This document shows positions 1 through 9,875 of a stretch of 64,000 bases of DNA, one piece after another (positions within the stretch are counted from its first letter, which is position 1; each line of letters opens with the position of its first letter). The DNA is taken from the sequence record NC_134264.1; one strand, written 5' to 3'. Both the position numbers and the translations under genes were made by a program. Source of the DNA: Escherichia phage Lindwurm. Below the pieces are notes generated by a model that worked only from the letters and a program-made list of their open reading frames with translations, had not been told where the DNA came from and made no database searches.

Positions 1-577
1 TACTACTTTCGTTGATAGATGTAAATAAGAATTTGATTTGACCCTGAGTTACTTTAACATTAGATTCTAGTATTAAGTGCATTCGGATACCTGGTTTTAG
101 CCCAGCCGAAGACGATGCATGAGCGATAAACCCTGCATCAAGGGGAAACATGTCCTCACTAATACTATTTAACATTCTAATAATATGTCGAGCCATGCCA
201 ACAAGATCAAACTTGTTACAACCACCTGTATCTACAATACCATCCACATCCATTGCAATTATATGACTTGGGTTAGATACATTAAAGTTGCCCTTCTTAC
301 GTCGCACATTATTTTTAGGTGCAAGACATCGACCTCGTACCGCAACGATATGAGGGTCAGACGTTAAACGTCTCATAAGAGGAAGCATTTCTACTAGGGT
401 TTGAGGATCAACTTCATCAATTACATCAAACTTGAAGGGCATTGAAGCTGGTTTACCTTCAGGATGCTTTGAAGAAAATCTTTTAGCAAAAAGATAGTCT
501 TCTGCTTTAACTTCTCGCCAATTGCCTGTGGCTAAATCGCGATGAAATCCTGCATGACCTTGTAGGATTGAGAACAC
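1..577 (-). CDS. hypothetical protein, C-terminal part beyond window edge
   Basis: Open reverse frame from GTG at 577 (AGGAG 7 nt upstream) to window start; contains IIAMDVDGIVDTGG motif; not in ORF track because it runs off the edge. Confidence 0.4.
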   Translation of the reverse strand, partial: MFSILQGHAGFHRDLATGNWREVKAEDYLFAKRFSSKHPEGKPASMPFKFDVIDEVDPQTLVEMLPLMRRLTSDPHIVAVRGRCLAPKNNVRRKKGNFNVSNPSHIIAMDVDGIVDTGGCNKFDLVGMARHIIRMLNSISEDMFPLDAGFIAHASSSAGLKPGIRMHLILESNVKVTQGQIKFLFTSINESS

Positions 578-1139
578 AACAATACTCCTGTGTTGGAAAT
601 GAAATAAGTTTTCTTTAGGACTATTCAGAAAGAATAGAACAACTGTTACTGTCAATTTCTCAACAAATTAATTGCAAATACTGAAGTGGGGTGGCAACTT
701 CCACTTTCACGCTGCGCTGCTGCTTTGCTATACCGCACAAATCCTTGAGGATGGCCGCTAAGCCAGATTTGCTCACCTAATGCTTCATATACTAGCTCAT
801 ACTAGATGCAATATAACTTACAGAATCACGTCTCGGAGTTTTTCACTCCTCCCGTCTCACTTCACAACCACCTCTATCTAGGTTGCTTCGAGGCCTTACC
901 AGGGTTCCTACGGGACGCAGATCGCTAAGTATTCTATTAACTATTTGTTTAAAAACTAACACGTAACAGTTAAAACAACCCTTAATGGGGCAGCCTAACT
1001 GTTCCGTATCGCGGATTGTAAACAAGAAAAATTAGCAAAATCAATTTTTACTAATGTCTCTCAATTCAATATAAATATTATATCAAGATTTTGGGCATCC
1101 TGCAAGTAAAATTTTCCGGATGGTGCTATCATTGGTCTT

Positions 1140-1172
1140 GAGTACGGATAAAACCGAGCCAAAATGACTCGG
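1140..1172 (-). terminator. rho-independent terminator of the minus-strand nrdD operon
   Basis: ACCGAG/CTCGGT stem read on minus strand followed by T-run. Confidence 0.5.
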
Positions 1173-1196
1173 TAATCAGAGTTCAGCTAATAAAAA

Positions 1197-1589
1197 TCAT
1201 TCATCATTTAATCCCGGAACATAGATCCCAACACGGTTTAATTGTTCTTTAGCTTCTTTGAGAATATCTGGAGTGTACTCCCAAATATCATCTTCCACCT
1301 GTAAAAGATGGGGCGAACAACCATCATCCGGCACACGACATATGGCCAAACCACGTGGATGGAACAAAGAGAAGTTTAGGGCAACAATCAAGCCCATAGC
1401 AGACAATTCATTCCAATCCAATTCCCATTCCCCCGCGTAGCCGGATAGGAAAACACCAACACAGGGATCATCTGTTTGCTGCTCAGGAAAAGTGAAGGAG
1501 GCTTGTCTTACCCCCAACCAACGTTGTAGCAGCTTCTCCGCACGTTTCACCAAACTAGGGTCAATCTGACGCCAATATACTTGTTCCAT
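1197..1589 (-). CDS. hypothetical protein, paralogue of adjacent 142-aa ORF
   Basis: 130-aa ORF; shares WxELDxMGL(I/V)xALN and G(I/Y)xxPGL blocks with 1599..2027. Confidence 0.55.
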   Translation of the reverse strand: MEQVYWRQIDPSLVKRAEKLLQRWLGVRQASFTFPEQQTDDPCVGVFLSGYAGEWELDWNELSAMGLIVALNFSLFHPRGLAICRVPDDGCSPHLLQVEDDIWEYTPDILKEAKEQLNRVGIYVPGLNDE

Positions 1590-1598
1590 TATGCCTCC

Positions 1599-2027
1599 TT
1601 AGGCAGTTAAACCTGGGATCATATACCCGAAACGTCGAAGTTTCTGAATCCCCTCATTTACTTCTTCCGGTGAGTAAGACCAACCATAACGTTCATTAAT
1701 CTGAAAACCAGGAGATTCACTAGTTTTATAGTTAACAACTAGGCGATGCTTAGCAGGCATAAACAGCTTATAGTTTAACGCAAAAACTAAGCCCATTTCG
1801 TCTAACTCTTTCCAGCCCACAATCTCTTCAAGATCCTCCTCTACCTGAACAATTAAACCAATACAGGGAGCCTCATCAATATCATCTTTAAAAGCAAAGG
1901 AGATTTCGTTATTCTCACACCATATTTTCAAAGAGTTAATAGCCTCATTATACAGGCTAGCCGGGAGAGTACGCCAAAAGTTAACTAAAATTGGGTTAGC
2001 TTCTTTAGAGAATACATTATTGAACAT
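1599..2027 (-). CDS. hypothetical protein, paralogue of adjacent 130-aa ORF
   Basis: 142-aa ORF, tandem with and similar to 1197..1589. Confidence 0.55.
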   Translation of the reverse strand: MFNNVFSKEANPILVNFWRTLPASLYNEAINSLKIWCENNEISFAFKDDIDEAPCIGLIVQVEEDLEEIVGWKELDEMGLVFALNYKLFMPAKHRLVVNYKTSESPGFQINERYGWSYSPEEVNEGIQKLRRFGYMIPGLTA

Positions 2028-2029
2028 AT

Positions 2030-2542
2030 TTACACCTTAAATTGTTGCAAGGATTTACACATTTCAAGATTTGGGCTAAATTCTAGCATATAGCTAACAG
2101 CTTTTAAATCTTGAAGATTTATCCCAGTCCTACCGTTGACTATAACCGTTGGATACTGATACATCATAGCACCCGCATCATCAAGCACACACCAATGTTT
2201 GAGCTTATGCTTTTCAACGAAGCGAAGAACAGAATTACCCCTAGATAATCCACCCCCAGTAAAATCCGTTGTACCAAGAAAACGATCGATAAGACCTAAT
2301 CCGGTCATAATCTGAATGTTCTCCATCTCATTTCTGACAGAGAACCAAGATGATACTCCAACAATCATTATTGGAGAAGGACGAATAAAGTCCTGAAAAG
2401 CCTTGAGAAGCGGTTTGAAAACCCAATCACTTCCAAAGAAAATCTTTTCATCATCAGGCGCATGATATTGGGAGATGCTCGAATTGAGCACCCCATCAAT
2501 GTCTAGAAAAATAATTGGAGTATTACTTATTTCCTGACACAT
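2030..2542 (-). CDS. HAD-superfamily phosphatase-like protein
   Basis: N-terminal FLDIDGVL (DxDGx) motif typical of HAD hydrolases. Confidence 0.55.
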   Translation of the reverse strand: MCQEISNTPIIFLDIDGVLNSSISQYHAPDDEKIFFGSDWVFKPLLKAFQDFIRPSPIMIVGVSSWFSVRNEMENIQIMTGLGLIDRFLGTTDFTGGGLSRGNSVLRFVEKHKLKHWCVLDDAGAMMYQYPTVIVNGRTGINLQDLKAVSYMLEFSPNLEMCKSLQQFKV

Positions 2543-3338
2543 AAGGTCTACCCTCTAAATGAGCTTCTACACGAGCAATAAAATCAGGATCACTGAAAGC
2601 ATCTACCGCACCTTTACTCCAGTAAGGGATACCGCGTTCTTCCAGCTGGTACATCTCACTACGAGTCATACCTTGATAGCTCGGTTCCGCCGCTAGGGCA
2701 CTATCATAGTAGTTAACAACCATTAGCTTGGCAGCAGTCAAATTAAGAACAGGAAATAATTCCCAGTAGAAGTTAATTACTTGGTTAGAGCAACCAACCA
2801 CAACGATCATATCTTGACTGGTAATACCATCAAAAACATTGTACATTTCTGCGTACGCTGGAGCATGCTCCCCAAAAAAGATTACATTAGGTTTAACCCA
2901 TTTATAATCGTCTGGATCAATAGAATTGTACCCTACATCAATAATCCGTTTATTGCTACTATTGTAGCTATCAGCTACAACAACCTCTTTTAAATATCCG
3001 TGAATGTGCAGAATGTCACTATGTGGAACGCCAGCACGCTCAATAAGGTCATCAACGTTGGTAGTCAAGTTTACTACTTGGCCTGGATATTGTTTATACC
3101 ATTCACCAATACGCAAATGCGCAAGATTGGGTTCAACAGTTTTTAGCTCTTCACGACGCTTGTTGTAAAACATATGGGTTTTATGATAAAAATTACCACG
3201 AAAGGCATGAATATTACATACCTCTTCTAGATCATAATCATCCCACAATGCTTTACCGCTAGCAGTATCAGTACGAAAAGCTCGTACACCACTTTCAACA
3301 CTCAAACCTGCACCACTAATAATAATTAATCTACGCAT
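2523..3338 (-). CDS. Sir2-family (sirtuin-like) NAD-dependent enzyme
   Basis: GAGLSVESGVRAFR, TTNVDDLIERAG, HIHG, PNVIFFGE and VVVGCS blocks match sirtuin core; no CxxC zinc ribbon. Confidence 0.7.
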   Translation of the reverse strand: MRRLIIISGAGLSVESGVRAFRTDTASGKALWDDYDLEEVCNIHAFRGNFYHKTHMFYNKRREELKTVEPNLAHLRIGEWYKQYPGQVVNLTTNVDDLIERAGVPHSDILHIHGYLKEVVVADSYNSSNKRIIDVGYNSIDPDDYKWVKPNVIFFGEHAPAYAEMYNVFDGITSQDMIVVVGCSNQVINFYWELFPVLNLTAAKLMVVNYYDSALAAEPSYQGMTRSEMYQLEERGIPYWSKGAVDAFSDPDFIARVEAHLEGRPYVSGNK

Positions 3339-3552
3339 TTTTCACCTGTTCTCTGAAGTTTTGCCCAATACTGTCTAATAGCTCAGCTAATTCTTTATTG
3401 CCTTTCTCCATTAAGGTATTAGCAATAACTTCTAGCATAGTAGCACAGGATTCAACACCATCCTTATAGCCAGTTTCCCACTGCTGCATTAATGCGTTTT
3501 CCAAAGCGTCGTTTAAACCCTTATCTGGTAGCATCGGCTTCGAGAATGCCAT
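3331..3552 (-). CDS. hypothetical protein
   Basis: 73-aa ORF in minus-strand operon, overlapping neighbours. Confidence 0.4.
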   Translation of the reverse strand: MAFSKPMLPDKGLNDALENALMQQWETGYKDGVESCATMLEVIANTLMEKGNKELAELLDSIGQNFREQVKNA

Positions 3553-3745
3553 AAAGTTTCTCCTCTAGTTCCATAACACGATTTTCATAAGAGGCACGCA
3601 ACTTTTCAATTGCCAGCGCACGCACTGTAACCTCATTAGAATTAATAGCTAATTGGGCCAGATCTTCTGTTTCCATACGTCCGTTGTAAATTAAGCGATA
3701 TTTAAGGTGTTTCACATTCTTAGTCATTATTAAACTCCACTGCAA
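3521..3745 (-). CDS. hypothetical protein
   Basis: 74-aa ORF in minus-strand operon. Confidence 0.4.
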   Translation of the reverse strand: MQWSLIMTKNVKHLKYRLIYNGRMETEDLAQLAINSNEVTVRALAIEKLRASYENRVMELEEKLYGILEADATR

Positions 3746-4100
3746 CTGTTTCTAGGTCTTCATCAGAAAAATTAGAGTATACATCTTTAAGGTATTGTTT
3801 AATGTCTTCAGTAATATCTTCGTATCCCTCAGGAATACGTTGGTATACTTTTAGTACTCTATTATAAACAAATTCAATATCATACTTTATTTCACCCTCA
3901 TCCTCGTCAAACAAGCAATCTGAGTTATACGGTGATACATCTAGATTTGTTTCTACCCAATCACCAATAATTGATGGATATCCAATACCCTCTAGATGGG
4001 AATAATCTCCAGTAGATGCAAAAATAGCTTCTCTAAGATCGTCTACGCCAAGATGGAAACCACCACATGTAGACTCAACTATATAGGGCTTTAATTCCAT
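3720..4100 (-). CDS. hypothetical acidic protein
   Basis: 126-aa ORF immediately downstream of nrdD; no radical-SAM CxxxCxxC so not NrdG. Confidence 0.45.
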   Translation of the reverse strand: MELKPYIVESTCGGFHLGVDDLREAIFASTGDYSHLEGIGYPSIIGDWVETNLDVSPYNSDCLFDEDEGEIKYDIEFVYNRVLKVYQRIPEGYEDITEDIKQYLKDVYSNFSDEDLETVAVEFNND

Positions 4101-4199
4101 ACCTTTCTCCTCTCAAATTTATAAATCTATTATATATAAATTTTTGGCTGAAAGCAAATAAAATAAAAGCCAGGTCGACTAGCAACCCGGCTGATTAGC

Positions 4200-6074
4200 T
4201 TATTTAGCTCGAATATCCTGATGTTTCACTCTGCCCATCACCTCGTGCTGTTTACCGGGGTTAAATGGACGAGCACCCGGATTTCCAAGATACCCACAAA
4301 CTCGACGAGTTACTTCAAGAGTTTCGGGGTCATGATTACCACAGATAGGGCACTTAAATCCATCTTCGGATGCTATTGTTTCACCTAAGAATCCACATTT
4401 ACCACAAGAATCCACCGGAGTATTAATACCGAAGTAATGAACCTTACTAGCAGCATAATTAATAACCCATTCCAATGCATCTGGGAATCGTTTCATATCC
4501 GGTAATTCTACATAGGAAATACACCCACCAGAAGCAATCGGAGTAAAGTTAGATTCATAATCAAATTTGACGTTAGGAGCAACTTTACGTTCCACATCAA
4601 GGTGGTGAGAGTTAGTGTAGTATCCTTTGGACAGAATATCTTCATGCTCCGGGAAATATTCACGGTCTAGACGACAAAAACGGTCACATAGGGATTCTGA
4701 TGGTGTAGCATACAGGCTATAACCTAACTTAGTCTCTTCCTTCTTTTGATCGACCCTATCTCGCATGTACTGCAATACACGCTGAACAAACTTGATGCAG
4801 GTCTCGGACATTGTATCTACATCTTTGCCAAACATGAACTGTAGCATTTCATGGCAACCAATATACCCTAGAGATACAGAAGCACGGTTATAGAAATGAT
4901 CGAATACATATTCATCAGGCCCCAAGCGTAACCCAAAGGCTCCTGACATATAGAGGATGGGTGCAGCTTTAGCTTGAATGTATTTTAAGCGATCAACTCT
5001 CCACTCCAACGCTTTTAATGCTGTATCCACACGTAGCTCAAGCAAATCAAAGAATAGGTCAATATTTCCCTCAGCTTCGATAGCAATTCTAGGCAAGTTT
5101 ACAGAAACAACACCTAAGTTATTACGACCGGCAGTTTCACCATCTTCTGTAGCAGCTAGGAATGAACGACAGCCCATAGAAACTTTATAGTCTCCAGTAA
5201 CTTCTACAACCTTGTCATAACTGATATAATCTGGATACATACGTTCAGCAGTACATTTCATAGCTAATTTCTTGATGTCATAATTAACATCTCCTGGTTT
5301 CATATTTACGCCATCACGAAGTACAAATACCAGTTTCGGGAAGATAGCTGTACGTTTATTGATACCTAAACCATCCATGCGTACTTTCAGTATTGCCCTC
5401 TGTACTAGACGTGCTTCCCAAGAAGTTCCTAGACCAAAACCAAAGGTAATAAATGGACTCTGACCATTAGAGTTGAACATGGTATTGATTTCATATTCTA
5501 AACCCTGACAAGCGTCATAGACTTCTTTTTCAGTCATCTCCGTAGCCATTACGGATGCTTTGGCTTCATCCTTAGTCCAACGTTTTGCAAACGCATGATT
5601 TTTATCATAGGATTTACGAACATAAGGGGCTAATACTTCATCAAGGCGATCTACAGAAGTACCACCATACTGATGGGAGCTAACCTGAGTGATAATCTGA
5701 GCAGTAATAGCCGCCGCAGTAGTAATAGAGTTTGGAGTGCTAATTTCAGCATTACCAACCTTCATACCATTCTTCAACATATCTTCCAGAGCTACCAGAC
5801 AACAGTTAGTCATGCCTAATGCAGCATAATCAGCATCATGGAAATGAATATCCCCAATCATATGAGCATTTCGAATCTGAATTGGCATTTCTTCTAGAAT
5901 CAGATACTTACTCAATTCACCTGCAAGCATATCCCTTTGTGTAGGGAAACGTTCTGAGGGTTTATTGGCATTATTAAATAGCAGCTCTTCATCTGCTGAC
6001 CCTTCGATAATCTCTTTGCAGTTTCTAATTAACGCCTGCATTTCTTTATATTTTAGTTCTTCGTTACGATTCAT
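4200..6074 (-). CDS. nrdD: anaerobic ribonucleoside-triphosphate reductase (class III)
   Basis: 624 aa; C-terminal glycyl-radical motif RVCGYLG and CxxC zinc site (CGKC...CPIC). Confidence 0.9.
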   Translation of the reverse strand: MNRNEELKYKEMQALIRNCKEIIEGSADEELLFNNANKPSERFPTQRDMLAGELSKYLILEEMPIQIRNAHMIGDIHFHDADYAALGMTNCCLVALEDMLKNGMKVGNAEISTPNSITTAAAITAQIITQVSSHQYGGTSVDRLDEVLAPYVRKSYDKNHAFAKRWTKDEAKASVMATEMTEKEVYDACQGLEYEINTMFNSNGQSPFITFGFGLGTSWEARLVQRAILKVRMDGLGINKRTAIFPKLVFVLRDGVNMKPGDVNYDIKKLAMKCTAERMYPDYISYDKVVEVTGDYKVSMGCRSFLAATEDGETAGRNNLGVVSVNLPRIAIEAEGNIDLFFDLLELRVDTALKALEWRVDRLKYIQAKAAPILYMSGAFGLRLGPDEYVFDHFYNRASVSLGYIGCHEMLQFMFGKDVDTMSETCIKFVQRVLQYMRDRVDQKKEETKLGYSLYATPSESLCDRFCRLDREYFPEHEDILSKGYYTNSHHLDVERKVAPNVKFDYESNFTPIASGGCISYVELPDMKRFPDALEWVINYAASKVHYFGINTPVDSCGKCGFLGETIASEDGFKCPICGNHDPETLEVTRRVCGYLGNPGARPFNPGKQHEVMGRVKHQDIRAK

Positions 6075-6103
6075 TACACCCTCCTTCTCTAACTAAGACT
6101 ACT

Positions 6104-6132
6104 ATTATAACTCATTCGAGGGCGGATGTCAA
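6104..6132 (-). promoter_or_regulatory. consensus sigma70 promoter for nrdD operon
   Basis: Minus strand reads TTGACA-17 bp-TATAAT upstream of nrdD start. Confidence 0.6.
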
Positions 6133-6183
6133 CAATATTTTACTATAAAGTTCTGTAACATGATCTGAGTCAAAAAATTTTAT

Positions 6184-6212
6184 TTGCCAACCTCTATTAA
6201 AAATTGTATAAT
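6184..6212 (+). promoter_or_regulatory. T5-type early promoter
   Basis: TTGCCA-17 bp-TATAAT with A/T-rich upstream tract. Confidence 0.5.
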
Positions 6213-6324
6213 CACGCACTCGTGTATGCGATATAAAATGATTATCTAGTATCACACATCTCCCGTTAAAAGCAAGCAAATTTTTTATTTAAATGCAATA
6301 TCATAGGCTTATTTAAAATTGTAG

Positions 6325-6353
6325 TTGCTTTTTACTGTATATATTGGTATAAT
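6325..6353 (+). promoter_or_regulatory. T5-type early promoter upstream of phoH
   Basis: TTGCTT-17 bp-TATAAT. Confidence 0.6.
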
Positions 6354-6426
6354 ATATTTGTAAGTTGATAAACAAGATCTTTTTGTTGATCCTCTGTTAG
6401 CGAAGTACACTATAGGAGTGTTATTT

Positions 6427-7179
6427 ATGGGAAAAGCACGTCAAAAAAGAGAGAACCGCAATGGTTCAAGAAAGTGTGGCAACAAATATGAGAATAACGT
6501 AATTCAGGCTGATTTTTCTAATGATTACGCTAACCCAGTTGCTAAATCCCTAGTAGGTAAAAACCGCGAGCAAAAATCATATATCAATATGATCAAGAAC
6601 AACACAGTGACTGTGGGTATCGGTGAGCCAGGTACTGGTAAAACCTTTATTCCGTCCGTTCTTGCAGCTCAGGAACTCGTAGACATTCACTCAGATATTG
6701 AGCAAGTGATCCTCGTACGTCCTAATGAACCTCTAGGTAAGTCTCTTGGTATGCTTCCTGGTGATCTAGCGGAAAAGCTAGAGCCTTGGTTGGAGCCAAT
6801 AGCTGATGGTATGAAATGGGCCATCGGCGATCATGCATATAAGGGATATGTCGAACGTCAGAAAATTAAATTTTTGGCTATCGAACATGCTCGTGGCAGA
6901 ACTTTCAACAACTCCTATGTAATTGTCGATGAAGCTCAGAATATTTCCGTTGAGGCAATGATTTGTCTCCTAACTCGTGTAGGACAAGACTGCCGTTTAA
7001 TTATCTGCGGAGATATAGCTCAGAAAGACATTAAAGGTGACTCAGGTCTAGCACTCCTTATGGAAGTCTATGAGAAATACGAAAATGCCCCATTCTCAAT
7101 GATCGAATTGATTGATAACGTTCGTTCTGTTGAGTCTAAAGCATTCTATGATATTTTTAAAGACATGGGGAAGGTGTAA
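6427..7179 (+). CDS. phoH: PhoH-like ATPase
   Basis: Walker A GEPGTGKT; PhoH-like length; AGGAG 8 nt upstream of ATG 6427. Confidence 0.8.
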   Translation: MGKARQKRENRNGSRKCGNKYENNVIQADFSNDYANPVAKSLVGKNREQKSYINMIKNNTVTVGIGEPGTGKTFIPSVLAAQELVDIHSDIEQVILVRPNEPLGKSLGMLPGDLAEKLEPWLEPIADGMKWAIGDHAYKGYVERQKIKFLAIEHARGRTFNNSYVIVDEAQNISVEAMICLLTRVGQDCRLIICGDIAQKDIKGDSGLALLMEVYEKYENAPFSMIELIDNVRSVESKAFYDIFKDMGKV

Positions 7180-7180
7180 T

Positions 7181-7402
7181 ATGGGAAACGTCGTTCATCT
7201 GAGCCGTAAAACTAAAATACATCGTACTTCACTGAGTGCTGCTAATATGATTACACGTAAGGAAGGGGAAGAAAGTCCTAAGACAACCCTAGCGTGGAAA
7301 ATTGTAACCTCAAATCCAAATAAACCATTCAATTATAACGAGCTGAGCACCTCCATAGATATTCTATTAAAAGAAGTAGCTAGAGCTAAAGTAATTGAAT
7401 AA
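7181..7402 (+). CDS. hypothetical protein
   Basis: 73-aa ORF from ATG 7181 with GGAAGG RBS; track ORF 7112 trimmed to this start. Confidence 0.4.
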   Translation: MGNVVHLSRKTKIHRTSLSAANMITRKEGEESPKTTLAWKIVTSNPNKPFNYNELSTSIDILLKEVARAKVIE

Positions 7403-7429
7403 GCTAAAAAGCTAGACTGGTAGTATACA

Positions 7430-7462
7430 GGGCCTGAGTATGAAAATACTCGGGCCTTTTCT
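7430..7462 (+). terminator. rho-independent terminator
   Basis: GGCCTGAGTA/TACTCGGGCC stem followed by TTTTCT. Confidence 0.6.
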
Positions 7463-7477
7463 ATCAGAAAATTTTAT

Positions 7478-7506
7478 TTGCCTAATGACCGATAATAAAG
7501 TAGAAT
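7478..7506 (+). promoter_or_regulatory. promoter upstream of nrdA
   Basis: TTGCCT-17 bp-TAGAAT. Confidence 0.5.
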
Positions 7507-7544
7507 ATTCCTTAAATCCTGATAACTATAAAAAGGAAAGCCAA

Positions 7545-9875
7545 ATGAGCCATCGCATTGAAAAAGTAATTAAACGTGACGGTACTGTAGAAGACTTTGC
7601 TCCTGAAAAACTCAATGGTTGGGCAGAGTATGGTTGCAAAACAGTTGATGTAAGTTGGTCAGCCATTACTATGGCTGCTCAAAAAACTCTGCCTAAAGGG
7701 GTTGTAGATTCCGACACTCTGATGGATGCATTAATTAAAGCTGCTGAAAGTCTTATCAAAGATAACCCAGCATACGATGTACCAGCAAAGGAATTACGTC
7801 TTGCGCAAATGCGTAAACGCCTTTATGACTCTTTCGAACCACCTTCTCTACGCTTCTTCCATGACCATATGGTTAGCGTAGGTGCATGGGAAGACATGAG
7901 TGCATGGATTACAGATGAGCAATTTGAAGCTCTGAATCAGGTTATCGACCATGATCGTGACCGTCTTTTTACTAGTGGTGGACTGAAGCAGTTCTTTGAT
8001 AAGTATTCCCGTCGTAACATAGCCACTGGTGAAATTTACGAAACTCCGCAGTTTGCCTACATGGGTATGGCAATGGCGATGCTATCTCAACCTAACTGGA
8101 CAATTCTAGATGCAATCGATCTCTACAACGCAATGTCACTCCACAAAATCAACGTTCCTACGCCGCCACTGGTTGGTCTGCGCTCTAGTGACCGTGGATT
8201 TGCTAGTTGCTGCCTCGTGGATTCCACTGACACGTTGGATTCAATCGACACCGCCGAGCACATCGTCTTCAAAATGGTCGCAGCCAGAGCGGGAATCGGG
8301 TATCATCTTGAAAGCCGATCAATTGCTGATCCGGTGCGAAATGGGGCATTCCCGCATTCCGGAAAACTGCCATATTATCGACACATTGACCGCTCAGTAA
8401 AGGCCAATACTCAGCAAACTCGTGGTGGTTCTGCTACAGTGTCTTATCCATACTTCGACCCTGAAATCATTCAATTGATGCAGGTTAAGCAACAACGTGC
8501 TACAGATGAGAATAAAATCGATAAGATGGATTATTCTCTGAGCTTTAACAATCTTTTGTTAAAACGTTATCTTAAAAACGAAGATATTACGCTAATGTCA
8601 TACTTCTATGCTCCAGAAGTTCATGAAGCGTTTTATAGTGATGACGAGGCTAAATTTGAAGAAATCTACGTGGCAGCGGAGAAACGTGTGGCATCTCTTA
8701 CAAAGATCGACCACGAAGGAAGAACAGTTCCTGCAGCTCCTAAAGTCTCTGCAAAAGAAATCCTAGATACTTGGCTACGTATCCGAATGGAAACAGGACG
8801 TATGTATGCTCATCACATCGGGGAATCTAACCGTCACGGTAACTTCCTTGATCCGATCCGTATGACAAACCTTTGTGTTGAAATTACTCAGCCTACACGC
8901 CCGTTCCATCATATCACGGAACTGTATAAGACAAAAGAGCAGCTTGATCAAATGAAGCCGGAGGATATCGGTGAAGTATCTCTGTGTAACTTAGGTGGTG
9001 TTGTACTTGGACGCATGGAATCTCTGGCTGAGTGGGAAAAAACTTGCTACATCCTTCTGAAATTCGTTGATACAATTATTGAAATTCAGGATTATCCATT
9101 CCCAACTATGGAGTATACGGCTAAGAAACGTCGTAATGTTGGTATTGGCCTGATGAACGCAGCAGGTGCAATGGCAGCAGAAGGTCTGGCTTACGAAGGT
9201 ATTGAAGCTCGTAACTGGATCCACCGTGAGGCTGAAAAACTGTCTTACTTCCTGCATAAAGCCTCTGTACGCCTAGCTAAAGAACAGGGCGCATGTGAGT
9301 GGTTTGATCGTACTAAACCGTCTAAAGGAATTCTGGTAATCGACACGTACAAGAAAACTGTTGATGAACTGGTATCCGTAGGTCTAGAAATGGATTGGGA
9401 GTCTCTGCGTGCAGATATTCTGAAATATGGTATGCGTAACTCTGTTCTGACTGCTCAGATGCCAGGAGAAAGTTCTTCTGTTCTGTTAGGTGTTACTAAC
9501 TCTATCGAACCACCTCGTAAGATTGTATCTATCAAGGGTAGTGCAGTAAATAAAGTAATTGCAATTGCTCCGGGTGCAACCGATTGGGAAACGTTAATGA
9601 GCTATAAACTGGCTTATGATGTAGATCGTATCGAGTGGATCAAGTGGGTAGCAACTATGCAGAAATTCTTCAGTCAGTCTATCAGTACGAATATGTATTA
9701 TGACTACACCAAGTTTGAGAATGAAATCATTCCTGGCCCAGTAGTAGTTCGTGATTTCATGACTGCTGTTAAGTATGGGTGGAAAACTTGGTATTATGCT
9801 AACTTCAATACCGCAAATGGTGGAGGTGCTGGAGAAGAAGCAGCCGGTTGTGCATCCGGTGGTTGTACTATTTAA
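7545..9875 (+). CDS. nrdA: ribonucleoside-diphosphate reductase alpha subunit
   Basis: ATP-cone start MSHRIEKVIKRDG; NLCVEI active-site block; ~776 aa; RBS AAAGGAAAG. Confidence 0.9.
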   Translation: MSHRIEKVIKRDGTVEDFAPEKLNGWAEYGCKTVDVSWSAITMAAQKTLPKGVVDSDTLMDALIKAAESLIKDNPAYDVPAKELRLAQMRKRLYDSFEPPSLRFFHDHMVSVGAWEDMSAWITDEQFEALNQVIDHDRDRLFTSGGLKQFFDKYSRRNIATGEIYETPQFAYMGMAMAMLSQPNWTILDAIDLYNAMSLHKINVPTPPLVGLRSSDRGFASCCLVDSTDTLDSIDTAEHIVFKMVAARAGIGYHLESRSIADPVRNGAFPHSGKLPYYRHIDRSVKANTQQTRGGSATVSYPYFDPEIIQLMQVKQQRATDENKIDKMDYSLSFNNLLLKRYLKNEDITLMSYFYAPEVHEAFYSDDEAKFEEIYVAAEKRVASLTKIDHEGRTVPAAPKVSAKEILDTWLRIRMETGRMYAHHIGESNRHGNFLDPIRMTNLCVEITQPTRPFHHITELYKTKEQLDQMKPEDIGEVSLCNLGGVVLGRMESLAEWEKTCYILLKFVDTIIEIQDYPFPTMEYTAKKRRNVGIGLMNAAGAMAAEGLAYEGIEARNWIHREAEKLSYFLHKASVRLAKEQGACEWFDRTKPSKGILVIDTYKKTVDELVSVGLEMDWESLRADILKYGMRNSVLTAQMPGESSSVLLGVTNSIEPPRKIVSIKGSAVNKVIAIAPGATDWETLMSYKLAYDVDRIEWIKWVATMQKFFSQSISTNMYYDYTKFENEIIPGPVVVRDFMTAVKYGWKTWYYANFNTANGGGAGEEAAGCASGGCTI

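What the first reader, a model, noticed from the sequence alone, without database searches (positions are those of the whole stretch)
1197..3338. Sir2-like enzyme, HAD phosphatase and two tandem paralogues co-transcribed with anaerobic RNR
Downstream of nrdD on the same strand, with no intervening terminator until ~1150, are a zinc-ribbon-less Sir2-family protein (catalytic His retained), a HAD phosphatase and two paralogous 130/142-aa proteins of unknown fold. Sir2 domains act in NAD-consuming defence systems; a phage-encoded copy next to a phosphatase could process NAD, ADP-ribose or a signalling nucleotide and so be a counter-defence or metabolic module.
Basis: partly seen in the sequence, partly recalled or inferred. 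Interest (0 to 1): 0.65.

Follow-up and report, generated by a model that had tools for sequence, protein, structure and literature searches.

The report
T5 phage sirtuin–phosphatase early operon
This is the already catalogued T5.100–T5.107 early gene block of a T5-like phage (a zinc-less sirtuin, a small HAD phosphatase and two DUF7415 proteins); no function has been shown by experiment, and the best-supported idea, already published, is NAD-dependent repair of cut RNA.

Summary
The genes are real and at the stated coordinates. The window is a Tequintavirus (96–98% nt identity to many T5-like phages), and the block is T5.102/105/106/107.

Confirmed:
- A CobB/SIRT5-like Sir2 with all NAD and catalytic motifs (His113, Tyr58/Arg61) and no zinc cysteines.
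- A HAD_SAK_2 phosphatase with an intact DxD motif.
- Two 30%-identical paralogues.

Wrong: the block is not shown to be co-transcribed with nrdD. A 10-bp hairpin plus U-tract and a TTGCTT-17-TATAAT promoter lie between them, and both are annotated as terminator and promoter in T5. Three small ORFs (126, 74 and 73 aa) were overlooked.

The Sir2 matches no defence-type SIR2 model. The Sir2–HAD pairing in T5-like phages was published by Iyer et al. (2022), who predicted Tpt1-like RNA 2'-phosphate removal. I verified two of their other contexts: RNA ligase–cREC–kinase–Sir2, and 2H–Sir2–Nudix/cREC–PIN-PhoH.

Each paralogue is a tandem of two DUF7415 domains, modelled at pLDDT 95 with no PDB neighbour. 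DUF7415 occurs widely in phage replication and nucleotide-metabolism regions, not specifically with Sir2.

In a published T5 knock-down screen, Sir2 and HAD were dispensable. T5.107 was marginally important.

Verdict: already known, moderate interest.

The parts
4168..4192 (-). Terminator-like hairpin directly after the nrdD stop codon (U-tract continues to about 4158). It separates nrdD from the cluster.
   Evidence: 10 pairs, 6 G-C, -15.4 kcal/mol, z = -2.7. Near-identical to the T5 sequence annotated as a rho-independent terminator.
4129..4157 (-). Promoter-like site for the cluster: -35 TTGCTT (4157-4152), 17-nt spacer, -10 TATAAT (4134-4129). It is followed by the RBS GAGAGGAG and the ATG at 4100.
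   Evidence: Read from the sequence. It missed the scan threshold because only 3 of 6 positions match in the -35 hexamer. It corresponds to the promoter annotated upstream of T5.100.
3720..4100 (-). 126-aa very acidic protein (pI 4.05), the T5.100 orthologue. First gene of the unit; function unknown.
   Evidence: (phrog_11748, E 5e-70).
3521..3745 (-). About 68-77-aa protein, the T5.101 orthologue. Start codon uncertain (TTG in the ORF list); function unknown.
   Evidence: (phrog_5236).
3331..3552 (-). 73-aa protein of unknown function. Its end overlaps the Sir2 start by 8 nt.
   Evidence: (phrog_5827).
2523..3338 (-). Sir2-family protein (T5.102 orthologue), 271 aa. It has a CobB/SIRT5-like catalytic core: G9-A-G-x-S13, F21-R22, Y58/R61, T92-x-N94-x-D96, H113, F155-G-E157, N209. 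No zinc-ligand cysteines.
   Evidence: 100% identical to the protein of phage phiP4.
2030..2542 (-). HAD-superfamily phosphatase of the HAD_SAK_2 family (T5.105 orthologue), 170 aa, with motifs D14-x-D16, S64-S65 and D121-D122. It is too short to hold a cap domain. Its start overlaps the Sir2 end by 20 nt.
   Evidence: It is wrongly labelled 'Sir2' through phrog_18062.
1599..2027 (-). 142-aa protein (T5.106 orthologue) made of two tandem DUF7415 domains.
   Evidence: the halves score 71.5 and 53.4 bits; cut-off 27.
1197..1589 (-). 130-aa protein (T5.107 orthologue) made of two tandem DUF7415 domains. Confident alpha+beta model with no solved structural neighbour. Its T5 orthologue is a 'Fit' gene in a published knock-down screen.
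1149..1173 (-). Terminator-like hairpin (9-bp stem 1173-1165 / 1161-1153, loop UUU) plus U-run 1152-1149, which ends the unit.
   Evidence: -13.2 kcal/mol, z = -2.6. T5 annotates a terminator after T5.107.

Best explanation
Shown: this is the early transcription unit T5.100-T5.107 of a T5-like phage. It has its own sigma-70-type promoter and is bracketed by two terminator-like hairpins.

Inferred: the unit carries two functionally separate parts.

(1) Sir2 and HAD are a conditionally useful, NAD-consuming RNA-end healing pair.
- The sirtuin would use NAD+ to take a 2'-phosphate off cleaved or religated RNA. The phosphate oxygen attacks C1'' of NAD+ and nicotinamide leaves. His113 then activates the ribose 2''-OH to release the RNA 2'-OH and ADP-ribose 1'',2''-cyclic phosphate. 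This is the same chemistry as Tpt1/KptA, carried out on a sirtuin scaffold.
- The cap-less HAD phosphatase would either remove 3'/2'-phosphates from RNA ends, as the HAD domain of T4 Pnkp does, or dephosphorylate the ADP-ribose-phosphate by-product.
- Sealing would fall to a host ligase, because T5-like phages lack the phage RNA ligase found next to this sirtuin elsewhere.
- The benefit would appear only when host nucleases cut tRNA or mRNA.

(2) The two (DUF7415)x2 proteins are not part of that chemistry. DUF7415 is a small, widespread phage domain tied to DNA-replication and nucleotide-supply genes. It probably acts as a binding or adaptor module, and at least T5.107 matters for normal T5 growth.
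For: Identity:
- 96-98% nt identity to T5-like phages; gene-for-gene match to T5.099-T5.108.
- Own promoter and terminators.

Sir2:
- The active site is intact, and F57-Y58-x-x-R61-R62, T92/N94, H113-G114, F155/E157 and N209 are invariant across 22 phage sirtuins and CobB.
- The invariant Tyr/Arg pair aligns with CobB Y92/R95, the pair that binds anionic acyl groups in class III sirtuins (own knowledge), so an anionic substrate is expected.

Context of orthologues (42-62% identical):
- In Vequintavirinae the order is RNA ligase 1, cREC_REC (cyclic-phosphate-processing domain), AAA_33 kinase, Sir2. The RNA ligase and cREC reading frames overlap and Sir2 starts 8 nt after cREC. Calcineurin-like phosphoesterases lie nearby.
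- In jumbo phage GAP32 the order is 2H phosphoesterase, Zn protein, Sir2, Nudt16-like Nudix fused to cREC, then PIN-PhoH.
- In T5-like phages the partner is HAD_SAK_2, a family named for its occurrence in multi-domain RNA-repair proteins.
- These are the three neighbourhood types on which Iyer et al. 2022 (PMC9503650, section 3.7.3) based the same prediction.

Other support:
- A phosphatase can act on a sirtuin product only if that product carries a phosphomonoester. This holds for Tpt1-type chemistry and not for deacylation (inference).
- T5.102 and T5.105 are 'Not Fit' on a laboratory host, as expected for a conditional function.

DUF7415 as a separate part:
- It lies next to the P2-type replication gene A in 41 of 80 viral loci.
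- It lies between nrdD and nrdG in Jiaodavirus.
- It is fused to a MazG-like dATP/dGTP pyrophosphohydrolase, a thymidylate kinase and ASCH/DUF3850.
- Nudix, RNR, Dam, FEN and helicase genes neighbour it in large phages.
- T5.107 is one of only 17 'Fit' T5 genes.
Against: - No biochemical evidence exists for any member of this sirtuin clade. The RNA-repair idea rests on gene neighbourhoods alone.
- By sequence the protein looks like an ordinary class III protein deacylase.
- It is acidic (pI 5.4), and the residues conserved specifically in the phage clade are mostly aromatic or hydrophobic rather than basic. Tpt1-type RNA enzymes are basic (own knowledge).
- T5-like phages lack the Rnl1-type ligase. 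No RNA ligase is annotated in Baret; the only 'polynucleotide kinase' label there is a pre-early DLDGT-motif (HAD-type) protein. The pathway would therefore be incomplete without host enzymes.
- In phi92-like phages Sir2 is not next to RNA-repair genes.
- Sir2 and HAD are separable.
- HAD homologues in T4-like phages lie next to td and the gp56 dCTPase, which would also fit a nucleotidase.
- Sir2 also recurs near NAD-salvage genes (Nampt in Mydo and GAP32), which fits any NAD-consuming activity.
- The T5.107 'Fit' call is marginal (p = 0.02).
Confidence: 0.4

Rival explanations
1. The Sir2 is simply a phage version of CobB/SIRT5. It would be an NAD-dependent protein lysine deacylase, probably preferring negatively charged acyl groups such as succinyl or malonyl, and would strip acylation from host or phage proteins to tune metabolism or replication. 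HAD and DUF7415 would be unrelated neighbours.
For: - The best matches are all protein deacylases: CobB 2e-17, Sir2Af 1e-14, SIRT5 4e-12; NCBIfam CobB-type models down to 8e-29.
- Every catalytic and NAD motif and the class III Tyr/Arg pair are invariant.
- The segment replacing the zinc ribbon is of similar length to CobB's (about 35 versus about 41 residues), so the peptide-binding small domain may persist.
- The protein is acidic.
- A 2016 modelling study of the Vibrio-phage homologue reached this conclusion (PMC5107563).
- Sir2 occurs without RNA-repair neighbours in phi92-like and Vibrio phages.
Against: - Scores are far below the CobB equivalog cut-offs (100 versus 243 bits).
- The zinc ligands that define canonical sirtuins are missing.
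- Three independent neighbourhoods hold RNA-end-processing enzymes.
- The hypothesis does not explain the overlapping phosphatase gene.
- The host already has CobB.
Confidence: 0.3
2. One reading: Sir2 plus HAD degrade or convert NAD-derived small molecules (ADP-ribose derivatives, gcADPR-type or other immune signals, NADP) and so blunt Thoeris-, CBASS- or SIR2-type defences or rebalance the NAD pool.
For: - In GAP32 the gene two upstream of Sir2 matches the anti-CBASS Acb1 family (E 6e-16), and the downstream gene is a Nudix-cREC fusion.
- In phiWae14 the HAD homologue is followed by DUF4326, which Iyer et al. predict to process ribose-linked phosphates of ADPr.
- Nampt lies near Sir2 in Mydo and GAP32.
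- Sir2 and HAD are dispensable on a defence-poor laboratory host.
Against: - There is no similarity to any defence-type SIR2 or to a known anti-defence family.
- Sirtuin chemistry acts on the nicotinamide-ribose bond of NAD, which ADPr-derived signals no longer contain (own knowledge).
- A phage NADase would harm T5's own NAD-dependent DNA ligase.
- The RNA ligase and kinase neighbours in Vequintavirinae are not explained.
Confidence: 0.12
3. Sir2 transfers a phosphoribosyl or ADP-ribosyl group from NMN, NaMN or NAD to a small nucleophile or a base, and HAD then removes the phosphate. This is the CobT/CobB-then-CobC logic of alpha-ribazole synthesis, and it would yield a modified nucleoside or cofactor.
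For: - CobB-type sirtuins have been credited with such an activity (stated in PMC9503650).
- A phosphomonoester product would give the coupled phosphatase a substrate (inference).
- The cluster lies in the nucleotide-metabolism region: nrdD, phoH, nrdAB, frd, thy.
Against: - No modified base or cofactor is known for T5 (own knowledge).
- Sir2 and HAD are separable across phages.
- No other biosynthetic genes lie in the unit.
Confidence: 0.05
4. All four genes form one module that serves anaerobic ribonucleotide reduction and is co-expressed with nrdD, for example as accessory or regulatory factors of NrdD.
For: - Same strand, immediately downstream of nrdD.
- This order is kept in Demerecviridae, including Klebsiella T5-likes.
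- A single-domain DUF7415 gene lies between nrdD and nrdG in Jiaodavirus.
Against: - A terminator and a promoter lie between nrdD and the cluster.
- Synteny within one phage family is inherited, so it is not independent evidence.
- Sir2 and HAD are not near nrdD in other phage families.
- Most DUF7415 genes lie in phages whose sampled neighbourhoods show no nrdD.
Confidence: 0.05

Closest known systems
Phage sirtuin clade with the 'Swiss-army-knife-like' HAD neighbour (Escherichia phage SP15 type), described by Iyer, Burroughs, Anantharaman and Aravind 2022 (Viruses 14:1977, section 3.7.3)
   Same: Same gene pair in the same phage group (T5-like). It is the same sirtuin clade as in the rV5/Mydo-type and jumbo phages (42-62% identity), and the same predicted role in RNA-end clean-up.
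   Different: Nothing differs for Sir2 and HAD; this window is another instance. In the passages I searched, that paper does not discuss the two DUF7415 genes, the three upstream small ORFs or the transcription signals.
E. coli CobB and human SIRT5 (class III sirtuin protein deacylases)
   Same: Closest solved relatives (2e-17 and 4e-12). They share the GAGxS, FR, (T/Q)xNxD, HG and FGE motifs and the Tyr-x-x-Arg pair.
   Different: No zinc-binding cysteines. About 28% identity to CobB. Scores lie well below the CobB equivalog cut-offs. The clade is phage-specific, with its own conserved residues (W32, C41, W80, W192). The substrate has not been tested.
Tpt1/KptA RNA 2'-phosphotransferase
   Same: It is the proposed working analogue: NAD+ as acceptor-donor, nicotinamide release, and a two-step mechanism in which the ribose 2''-OH attacks the intermediate. 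The gene contexts with RNA ligase, kinase and cyclic phosphodiesterase are similar.
   Different: Unrelated fold and family. This protein is a Rossmann-fold sirtuin, and no Tpt1 Pfam match was listed. The analogy is inference only.
HAD phosphatase domain of T4 polynucleotide kinase-phosphatase, and the HAD_SAK_2 domains of multi-domain RNA-repair proteins
   Same: DxD nucleophile motif, small cap-less core, and association with RNA-repair enzymes (T4 Pnkp from own knowledge).
   Different: It is a stand-alone 170-aa protein. It has no detectable sequence relative in the PDB, even with a profile. Homologues in T4-like phages lie beside nucleotide-metabolism genes. The substrate is unknown.
Defence-associated SIR2 NADases (ThsA, DSR1/2, SIR2-HerA, SIR2 of short pAgo systems)
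   Same: Same superfamily. They use NAD+, and many also lack the zinc ribbon (own knowledge).
   Different: No PADLOC defence-SIR2 model matches at E up to 0.1. There is no sensor or partner domain. The gene is encoded by a virulent phage, not by a host defence island.
DUF7415 (Pfam PF24187; phrog_2502 and phrog_3954), including the small genes flanking replication gene A in P2-like prophages
   Same: Same roughly 50-aa domain with the signature W-N-x-x-S-x-x-G-L-I-x-x-I-N-x-x-x-L-H-P-x-G-L-A...S.
   Different: Here the domain is duplicated in tandem within each protein and the gene is duplicated as well, giving four domains in a row. Most relatives are single-domain proteins of 70-110 aa.

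Membership tests
Sir2/sirtuin superfamily (PF02146) | Rossmann-fold NAD-binding motifs GAGxS...FR, (Q/T)xNxD and FGE, the G(T/C)S strand, and a late Asn | tested here: met
   PF02146 at 87.6 bits (cut-off 24). The motifs lie at residues 9-13, 21-22, 92-96, 155-157, 182-184 and 209, and are invariant or nearly invariant in the clade.
Sir2/sirtuin superfamily (PF02146) | Catalytic histidine in the HG motif | tested here: met
   H113-G114 aligns with the CobB catalytic HG and is invariant in 23 sequences.
Canonical sirtuin deacylases (CobB-type) | Cys4 zinc-ribbon module in the small domain | tested here: not met
   There is no Cys between residues 114 and 181. The phage clade lacks the CobB cysteines throughout alignment A5.
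Canonical sirtuin deacylases (CobB-type) | Score above the curated CobB equivalog/subfamily cut-offs | tested here: not met
   Best NCBIfam score is 100.4 bits against a cut-off of 243.
Class III sirtuins (SIRT5/CobB) | The Tyr-x-x-Arg pair that recognises anionic acyl groups | tested here: met
   Y58 and R61 align with CobB Y92 and R95 and are invariant in the phage clade. The functional meaning of this pair is from own knowledge.
Class III sirtuins (SIRT5/CobB) | NAD-dependent lysine deacylase activity | not testable with these tools
   Needs enzyme assays.
Defence-associated SIR2 NADases | Sequence membership in the ThsA, DSR, SIR2-HerA or pAgo-SIR2 families | tested here: not met
   No PADLOC SIR2 model matches at E up to 0.1.
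Phage 'RNA-repair' sirtuin clade (Iyer et al. 2022) | Orthology with the sirtuins of rV5/Mydo-type and jumbo phages | tested here: met
   57-62% identity to the Mydo and inoa proteins and 42% to GAP32. All fall in phrog_2162 (E 4e-121).
Phage 'RNA-repair' sirtuin clade (Iyer et al. 2022) | Neighbourhood with RNA-end-processing genes | tested here: met
   HAD_SAK_2 overlaps the Sir2 gene here. Orthologues lie beside Rnl1, cREC and an AAA_33 kinase, or beside 2H, Nudix-cREC and PIN-PhoH.
Phage 'RNA-repair' sirtuin clade (Iyer et al. 2022) | RNA 2'-phosphate removal activity | not testable with these tools
   It is a prediction only. I found no experimental report.
Tpt1/KptA | Homology to the Tpt1 fold or family | tested here: not met
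   The only Pfam hit is SIR2, and the PDB hits are all sirtuins.
HAD superfamily, HAD_SAK_2 family (PF18143) | Family profile match, plus motif I DxD, motif II Ser/Thr and motif IV acidic pair | tested here: met
   71.8 bits (cut-off 27.5), covering positions 1-138 of the 139-position model. D14, D16, S64, S65, D121 and D122 are invariant across T5-like, Aeromonas and Proteus phage homologues.
HAD superfamily, HAD_SAK_2 family (PF18143) | Cap-less (C0) architecture, implying a macromolecular substrate | tested here: inconclusive
   The spacing of motifs within 170 aa leaves no room for a cap (inference from the HAD classification). The single-sequence model was unusable (pLDDT 38).
DUF7415 (PF24187) | Profile match above the gathering score | tested here: met
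   Whole proteins score 121 and 108 bits. Each half alone scores 53-72 bits against a cut-off of 27.
Autonomous glycyl-radical cofactors (GrcA / T4 Y06I type), considered for the paralogues | Conserved RVxGY glycine-radical motif and a Gly_radical domain | tested here: not met
   The C-terminal RVGIY/RRFGY strings are confined to T5-like members and absent from the wider family. There is no Gly_radical Pfam hit and no structural match.

The most novel reading that the evidence does not exclude
The zinc-less phage sirtuin is a nucleic-acid enzyme. It would be the first sirtuin shown to remove RNA 2'-phosphates (or ADP-ribosylate RNA ends) with NAD+. Working with the cap-less HAD phosphatase, it would let T5-like and more than 1000 other sequenced phages undo tRNA or mRNA cleavage by host immune nucleases. 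Separately, DUF7415 would be a new replication- or dNTP-linked binding domain that is needed for T5 growth.
Probability: 0.3. Interest if true: 0.7.

Novelty: already known. Interest (0 to 1): 0.3.

Why it matters
This sirtuin family is present in about 1000 sequenced phage records: T5-like, rV5-like, phi92-like, Mydo-like, KVP40-like and jumbo phages. No member has been characterised biochemically.

If it repairs RNA, it would add a new activity to the sirtuin superfamily. It would also add a new layer to how phages such as T5, already known to counter tRNA-cutting defences with their own tRNAs, survive RNA-targeting immunity.

If it is a deacylase, it would be a rare case of a phage rewriting host protein acylation.

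The window itself adds no new sequence. The proteins are 97-100% identical to deposited ones, and the Sir2-HAD idea is published.

The useful additions from this work are:
- correction of the transcription claim;
- the finding that many records label the HAD gene 'Sir2';
- a first anatomy and context map for DUF7415, one copy of which (T5.107) scored as important in a genome-wide T5 screen.

Tried and rejected
1. Glycyl-radical 'spare part' idea for the paralogues. It was prompted by the C-terminal RVGIY/RRFGYM strings, the size similar to GrcA and the nrdD neighbourhood. Rejected: the motif is not conserved outside T5-likes, there is no Gly_radical hit and no structural match.

2. Defence-type SIR2. 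No PADLOC match.

4. Structural classification of HAD. There was no PDB sequence relative with either the single sequence or a 5-member profile. The single-sequence AlphaFold model had pLDDT 38 and was not used.

5. Relation of this HAD to the other T5 HAD-like pre-early protein (labelled 'polynucleotide kinase'; probably Dmp). Only the DxDG motif is shared.

6. A link between DUF7415 and Sir2 outside Demerecviridae. None was found. rV5-, phi92- and jumbo-type Sir2 neighbourhoods contain no DUF7415, and DUF7415 loci in viral contigs show no Sir2.

7. An Rnl1-type RNA ligase in T5-like phages. None found (annotations).

8. RNA families and repeats in 1-8000. No Rfam match at E up to 0.1 and only short chance repeats.

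9. The word-indexed protein search with the 130-aa paralogue, and with a 45-member alignment, reached few distant relatives (21 and 29 hits). The exhaustive representative search was needed (164 hits).

Full report
**What the window is.** Bases 1-6500 match more than 540 T5-like phage records, at 96-98% identity to the closest (SUT_E1520, ABTNLsp4, Baret). Gene for gene, the region equals T5.099 (nrdD) to T5.108 (origin-binding protein) of the T5 reference. The Sir2 protein is 100% identical, and the HAD 98% identical, to those of Escherichia phage phiP4, where they are annotated 'NAD-dependent protein deacylase' and 'RNA repair protein'. The finding is therefore a rediscovery of a gene block deposited about twenty years ago.

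**Checking the observation.**
- The four ORFs exist at the stated coordinates on the minus strand.
- Sir2 (2523-3338) matches PF02146 (E 1e-24) and phrog_2162 (E 4e-121). Its closest solved relatives are E. coli CobB (2e-17), the Archaeoglobus Sir2Af proteins and human SIRT5.
- In an alignment of 22 phage homologues with CobB, the NAD and catalytic motifs are invariant or nearly so: G9-A-G-x-S13, F21-R22, T92-x-N94-x-D96, H113-G114, F155-G-E157, N209. The phage proteins have none of the cysteines of the CobB zinc ribbon.
- F57-Y58-x-x-R61-R62 is also invariant and aligns with CobB Y92/R95. From my own knowledge, this is the pair that class III sirtuins use to hold succinyl or malonyl carboxylates. 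It predicts an anionic substrate.
- HAD (2030-2542) matches PF18143 HAD_SAK_2 over the whole model (E 1e-19). It keeps D14-x-D16, S64-S65 and D121-D122 in all homologues aligned.
- The 142- and 130-aa proteins are 30% identical. Both belong to PF24187 DUF7415 and phrog_2502.

- A 10-bp hairpin starts eight bases after the nrdD stop codon (4192-4168; -15.4 kcal/mol; z = -2.7 against shuffles) and is followed by a U-rich run.
- Then come TTGCTT-17 nt-TATAAT (4157-4129), a strong RBS, and the ATG of a 126-aa ORF at 4100.
- This intergenic stretch is almost identical in T5 and Baret. The T5 record annotates exactly a terminator and a promoter there.
- Co-transcription with nrdD is therefore not supported, although read-through cannot be excluded without RNA data.
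- The terminator near 1150 is real: stem 1173-1153 plus a U-run, and T5 annotates one at the equivalent site.
- Three ORFs between nrdD and Sir2 (126, 74 and 73 aa; phrogs of unknown function) belong to the same unit.
- The unit is thus seven genes of about 3 kb, from promoter to terminator.

**Is the Sir2 a defence-type enzyme?** No. No model of ThsA, DSR, SIR2-HerA or pAgo-associated SIR2 in PADLOC matches at E up to 0.1. NCBIfam places the protein nearest CobB-type deacylases, but far below their cut-offs (100 versus 243 bits). It belongs to a phage-specific clade found in about 1000 phage records: T5-like, rV5-like, phi92-like, Mydo-like, KVP40-like Vibrio phages and jumbo phages.

**What is already published.**
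- Iyer, Burroughs, Anantharaman and Aravind (Viruses 2022; PMC9503650, section 3.7.3) describe this clade and three conserved neighbourhoods:
  - jumbo phages, with 2H, Nudix, cREC and PIN;
  - rV5/Mydo-type phages, with T4-like RNA ligase, cREC, a nucleotide kinase, MazG and sometimes a calcineurin-like phosphoesterase;
- They propose that the sirtuin acts like KptA/Tpt1, removing RNA 2'-phosphates, and that the accessory enzymes open cyclic phosphates or process the ADP-ribose cyclic-phosphate by-product.
- An earlier modelling paper on Vibrio phages noted the missing zinc site and argued for a CobB-like deacetylase (PMC5107563).
- I found no experimental study of any member.

**Independent check of those contexts.**
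- In Escherichia phage inoa the order is RNA ligase 1, a 116-aa cREC_REC protein (E 1e-14), then Sir2. The RNA ligase and cREC reading frames overlap and Sir2 starts 8 nt after cREC. An AAA_33 kinase and a calcineurin-like phosphoesterase lie just upstream.
- In Proteus phage Mydo the order is phosphoesterase, RNA ligase, cREC, AAA_33 kinase, a small ORF, Sir2, DNA ligase. Nampt and PRPP synthetase lie about 5 kb away.
- In jumbo phage GAP32 the order is Nampt, then a 2H phosphoesterase (best Pfam match Acb1, E 6e-16), a zinc-binding protein, Sir2, a Nudt16-like Nudix fused to cREC, then PIN-PhoH.
- These contexts support the RNA-end-processing theme.

Against it:
- phi92-like and Vibrio phages carry Sir2 without such neighbours;
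- T5-like phages lack the Rnl1-type ligase (annotation);
- the protein is acidic (pI 5.4), with no clade-specific basic residues.

**Is Sir2-HAD an obligate pair?** No.
- In this window the two genes overlap by 20 nt.
- T5 has two small ORFs between them and Baret has one.
- Klebsiella T5-like phages keep Sir2 and both paralogues but lack HAD.
- HAD homologues stand alone in T4-like Aeromonas and Proteus phages, next to thymidylate synthase, the gp56 dCTPase or dda/dexA. In one case (phiWae14) HAD is followed by DUF4326, a predicted ADPr-phosphate phosphatase.
- HAD has no detectable relative in the PDB, and the single-sequence model failed.

**The paralogues.**
- Each half of each protein independently matches DUF7415 above threshold (53-72 bits, cut-off 27). 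The unit therefore ends with four DUF7415 domains.
- AlphaFold with a 21-sequence alignment gives a confident alpha+beta model (pLDDT 95, pTM 0.88).
- An exhaustive profile search found 164 representative relatives. Most are single-domain proteins of 70-110 aa with the signature W-N-E-x-S-x-x-G-L-I-x-R-I-N-x-E-I-L-H-P-L-G-L-A...T-G-x-S.
- Some are fused to a MazG-like dATP/dGTP pyrophosphohydrolase, a thymidylate kinase or ASCH/DUF3850.
- In Jiaodavirus a single-domain copy lies between nrdD and nrdG.
- In 41 of 80 viral-contig loci the domain lies next to the P2-type replication initiator gene A, with DinI, DNA methylases and ASCH nearby.
- In large phages its neighbours include Nudix, GmrSD_N/DUF262, RNR, Dam, FEN and helicases.
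- In T5-like phages the next gene after the terminator is the origin-binding protein.
- DUF7415 therefore tracks DNA-replication and nucleotide-supply regions, not Sir2. I infer a binding or adaptor role, with low confidence.

**Experimental evidence from the literature.** In the CRISPRi-ART genome-wide T5 screen (Adler et al. 2025; PMC11879866, supplementary files 1 and 16), T5.100 to T5.106, including Sir2 (T5.102) and HAD (T5.105), are 'Not Fit'. T5.107 is one of only 17 'Fit' genes and is listed as being of entirely unknown function, but the call is marginal (mean -2.90, p = 0.0215). This fits a conditional role for Sir2 and HAD and a more central one for at least one DUF7415 protein.

**Conclusion.**
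- The anatomy is confirmed, with a corrected transcription map.
- Best-supported mechanism: NAD-dependent RNA-end healing by Sir2, with HAD as end phosphatase or by-product phosphatase (about 0.4). This is an existing in-silico prediction, not a new one.
- Rivals:
  - plain class III protein deacylase, about 0.3;
  - processing of NAD-derived small molecules or immune signals, about 0.12;
  - two minor alternatives (CobT/CobB-CobC-type ribosyl transfer followed by dephosphorylation; a single nrdD-linked module), about 0.05 each.
- The block is not one four-gene module.
- Novelty: already known. Interest is moderate, because the enzymology of a very widespread phage sirtuin is still untested and DUF7415 is uncharacterised.

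Noticed in passing
window 2030-2542 (-); T5 T5.105; Baret L001:5202-5708: Annotation error in public records. phrog_18062, named 'Sir2 (NAD-dependent deacetylase)', matches residues 79-170 of the HAD protein (E 4e-57), while Pfam shows HAD_SAK_2 across residues 10-145. As a result RefSeq T5 and many pharokka-annotated T5-like genomes list two 'Sir2' genes, one of which is the HAD phosphatase.
   Followed up: yes
window 1197-1589 (-) and homologues: Several records call the DUF7415 protein 'tail tube protein' (JLBYU43, HMD-P5, vB_EcoD-Elw, STG2, Kpn02). A Jiaodavirus single-domain copy is called 'MazG-like family protein'. Nothing in the sequence or the model supports either name.
   Followed up: partly
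window about 2523-2542; T5 L002:12244-12602; Baret L001:5695-5877: The Sir2/HAD junction is a variable spot. T5 has two 60-aa ORFs there (both phrog_5116 according to the CRISPRi-ART re-annotation), Baret has one, and this window has none, so Sir2 and HAD overlap by 20 nt.
   Followed up: partly
window 3720-4100 (-): The first gene of the unit encodes a 126-aa, strongly acidic protein (pI 4.05; 30 Asp+Glu against 8 Lys+Arg). It is the T5.100 orthologue and has no family assignment beyond phrog_11748. Its size and charge are typical of DNA mimics or host-factor inhibitors. It was 'Not Fit' in the T5 screen.
   Followed up: no
window 6104-6212: Back-to-back strong promoter-like sites lie between nrdD and phoH. 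A perfect TTGACA-17-TATAAT on the minus strand (6132-6104) faces nrdD, and TTGCCA-17-TATAAT on the plus strand (6184-6212) faces phoH. T5 annotates promoters in the same gap.
   Followed up: no
phage collection records OR847503.1, OR848287.1, OR846735.1, MG065646.1, MG065677.1: Records named 'Listeria phage LM 4-11-1 / 4-14-1' carry T5-like Sir2 and HAD at 96-97% identity. Records named 'Campylobacter phage D1 / A13b' carry rV5-like Sir2 and RNA ligase. The host labels look wrong, or the assemblies are contaminated.
   Followed up: no
L095:2770-3216 (Cronobacter phage GAP32): The 2H phosphoesterase two genes upstream of the GAP32 sirtuin matches the anti-CBASS Acb1 family (E 6e-16) better than the generic 2'-5' RNA ligase family. 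The 'RNA repair' neighbourhood of jumbo-phage sirtuins could therefore also be read as a nucleotide-signal-degrading island.
   Followed up: partly
L008:1-1133 (Mydo) and L095:1-1379 (GAP32): NAD-salvage genes (Nampt, PRPP synthetase) lie within about 2-5 kb of the phage sirtuin in two unrelated phages. Nicotinamide, the sirtuin by-product, is the Nampt substrate. No NadR/PnuC (NARP3) genes are annotated in the closely related Tequintavirus Baret.
   Followed up: partly
window 1-577 (-) and 578-1196: The 5' part of the origin-binding protein gene (T5.108 orthologue) runs off the left end of the window. The roughly 620-nt gap between it and the cluster holds only tiny ORFs and promoter-like sites. 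It was not examined for origin features.
   Followed up: no
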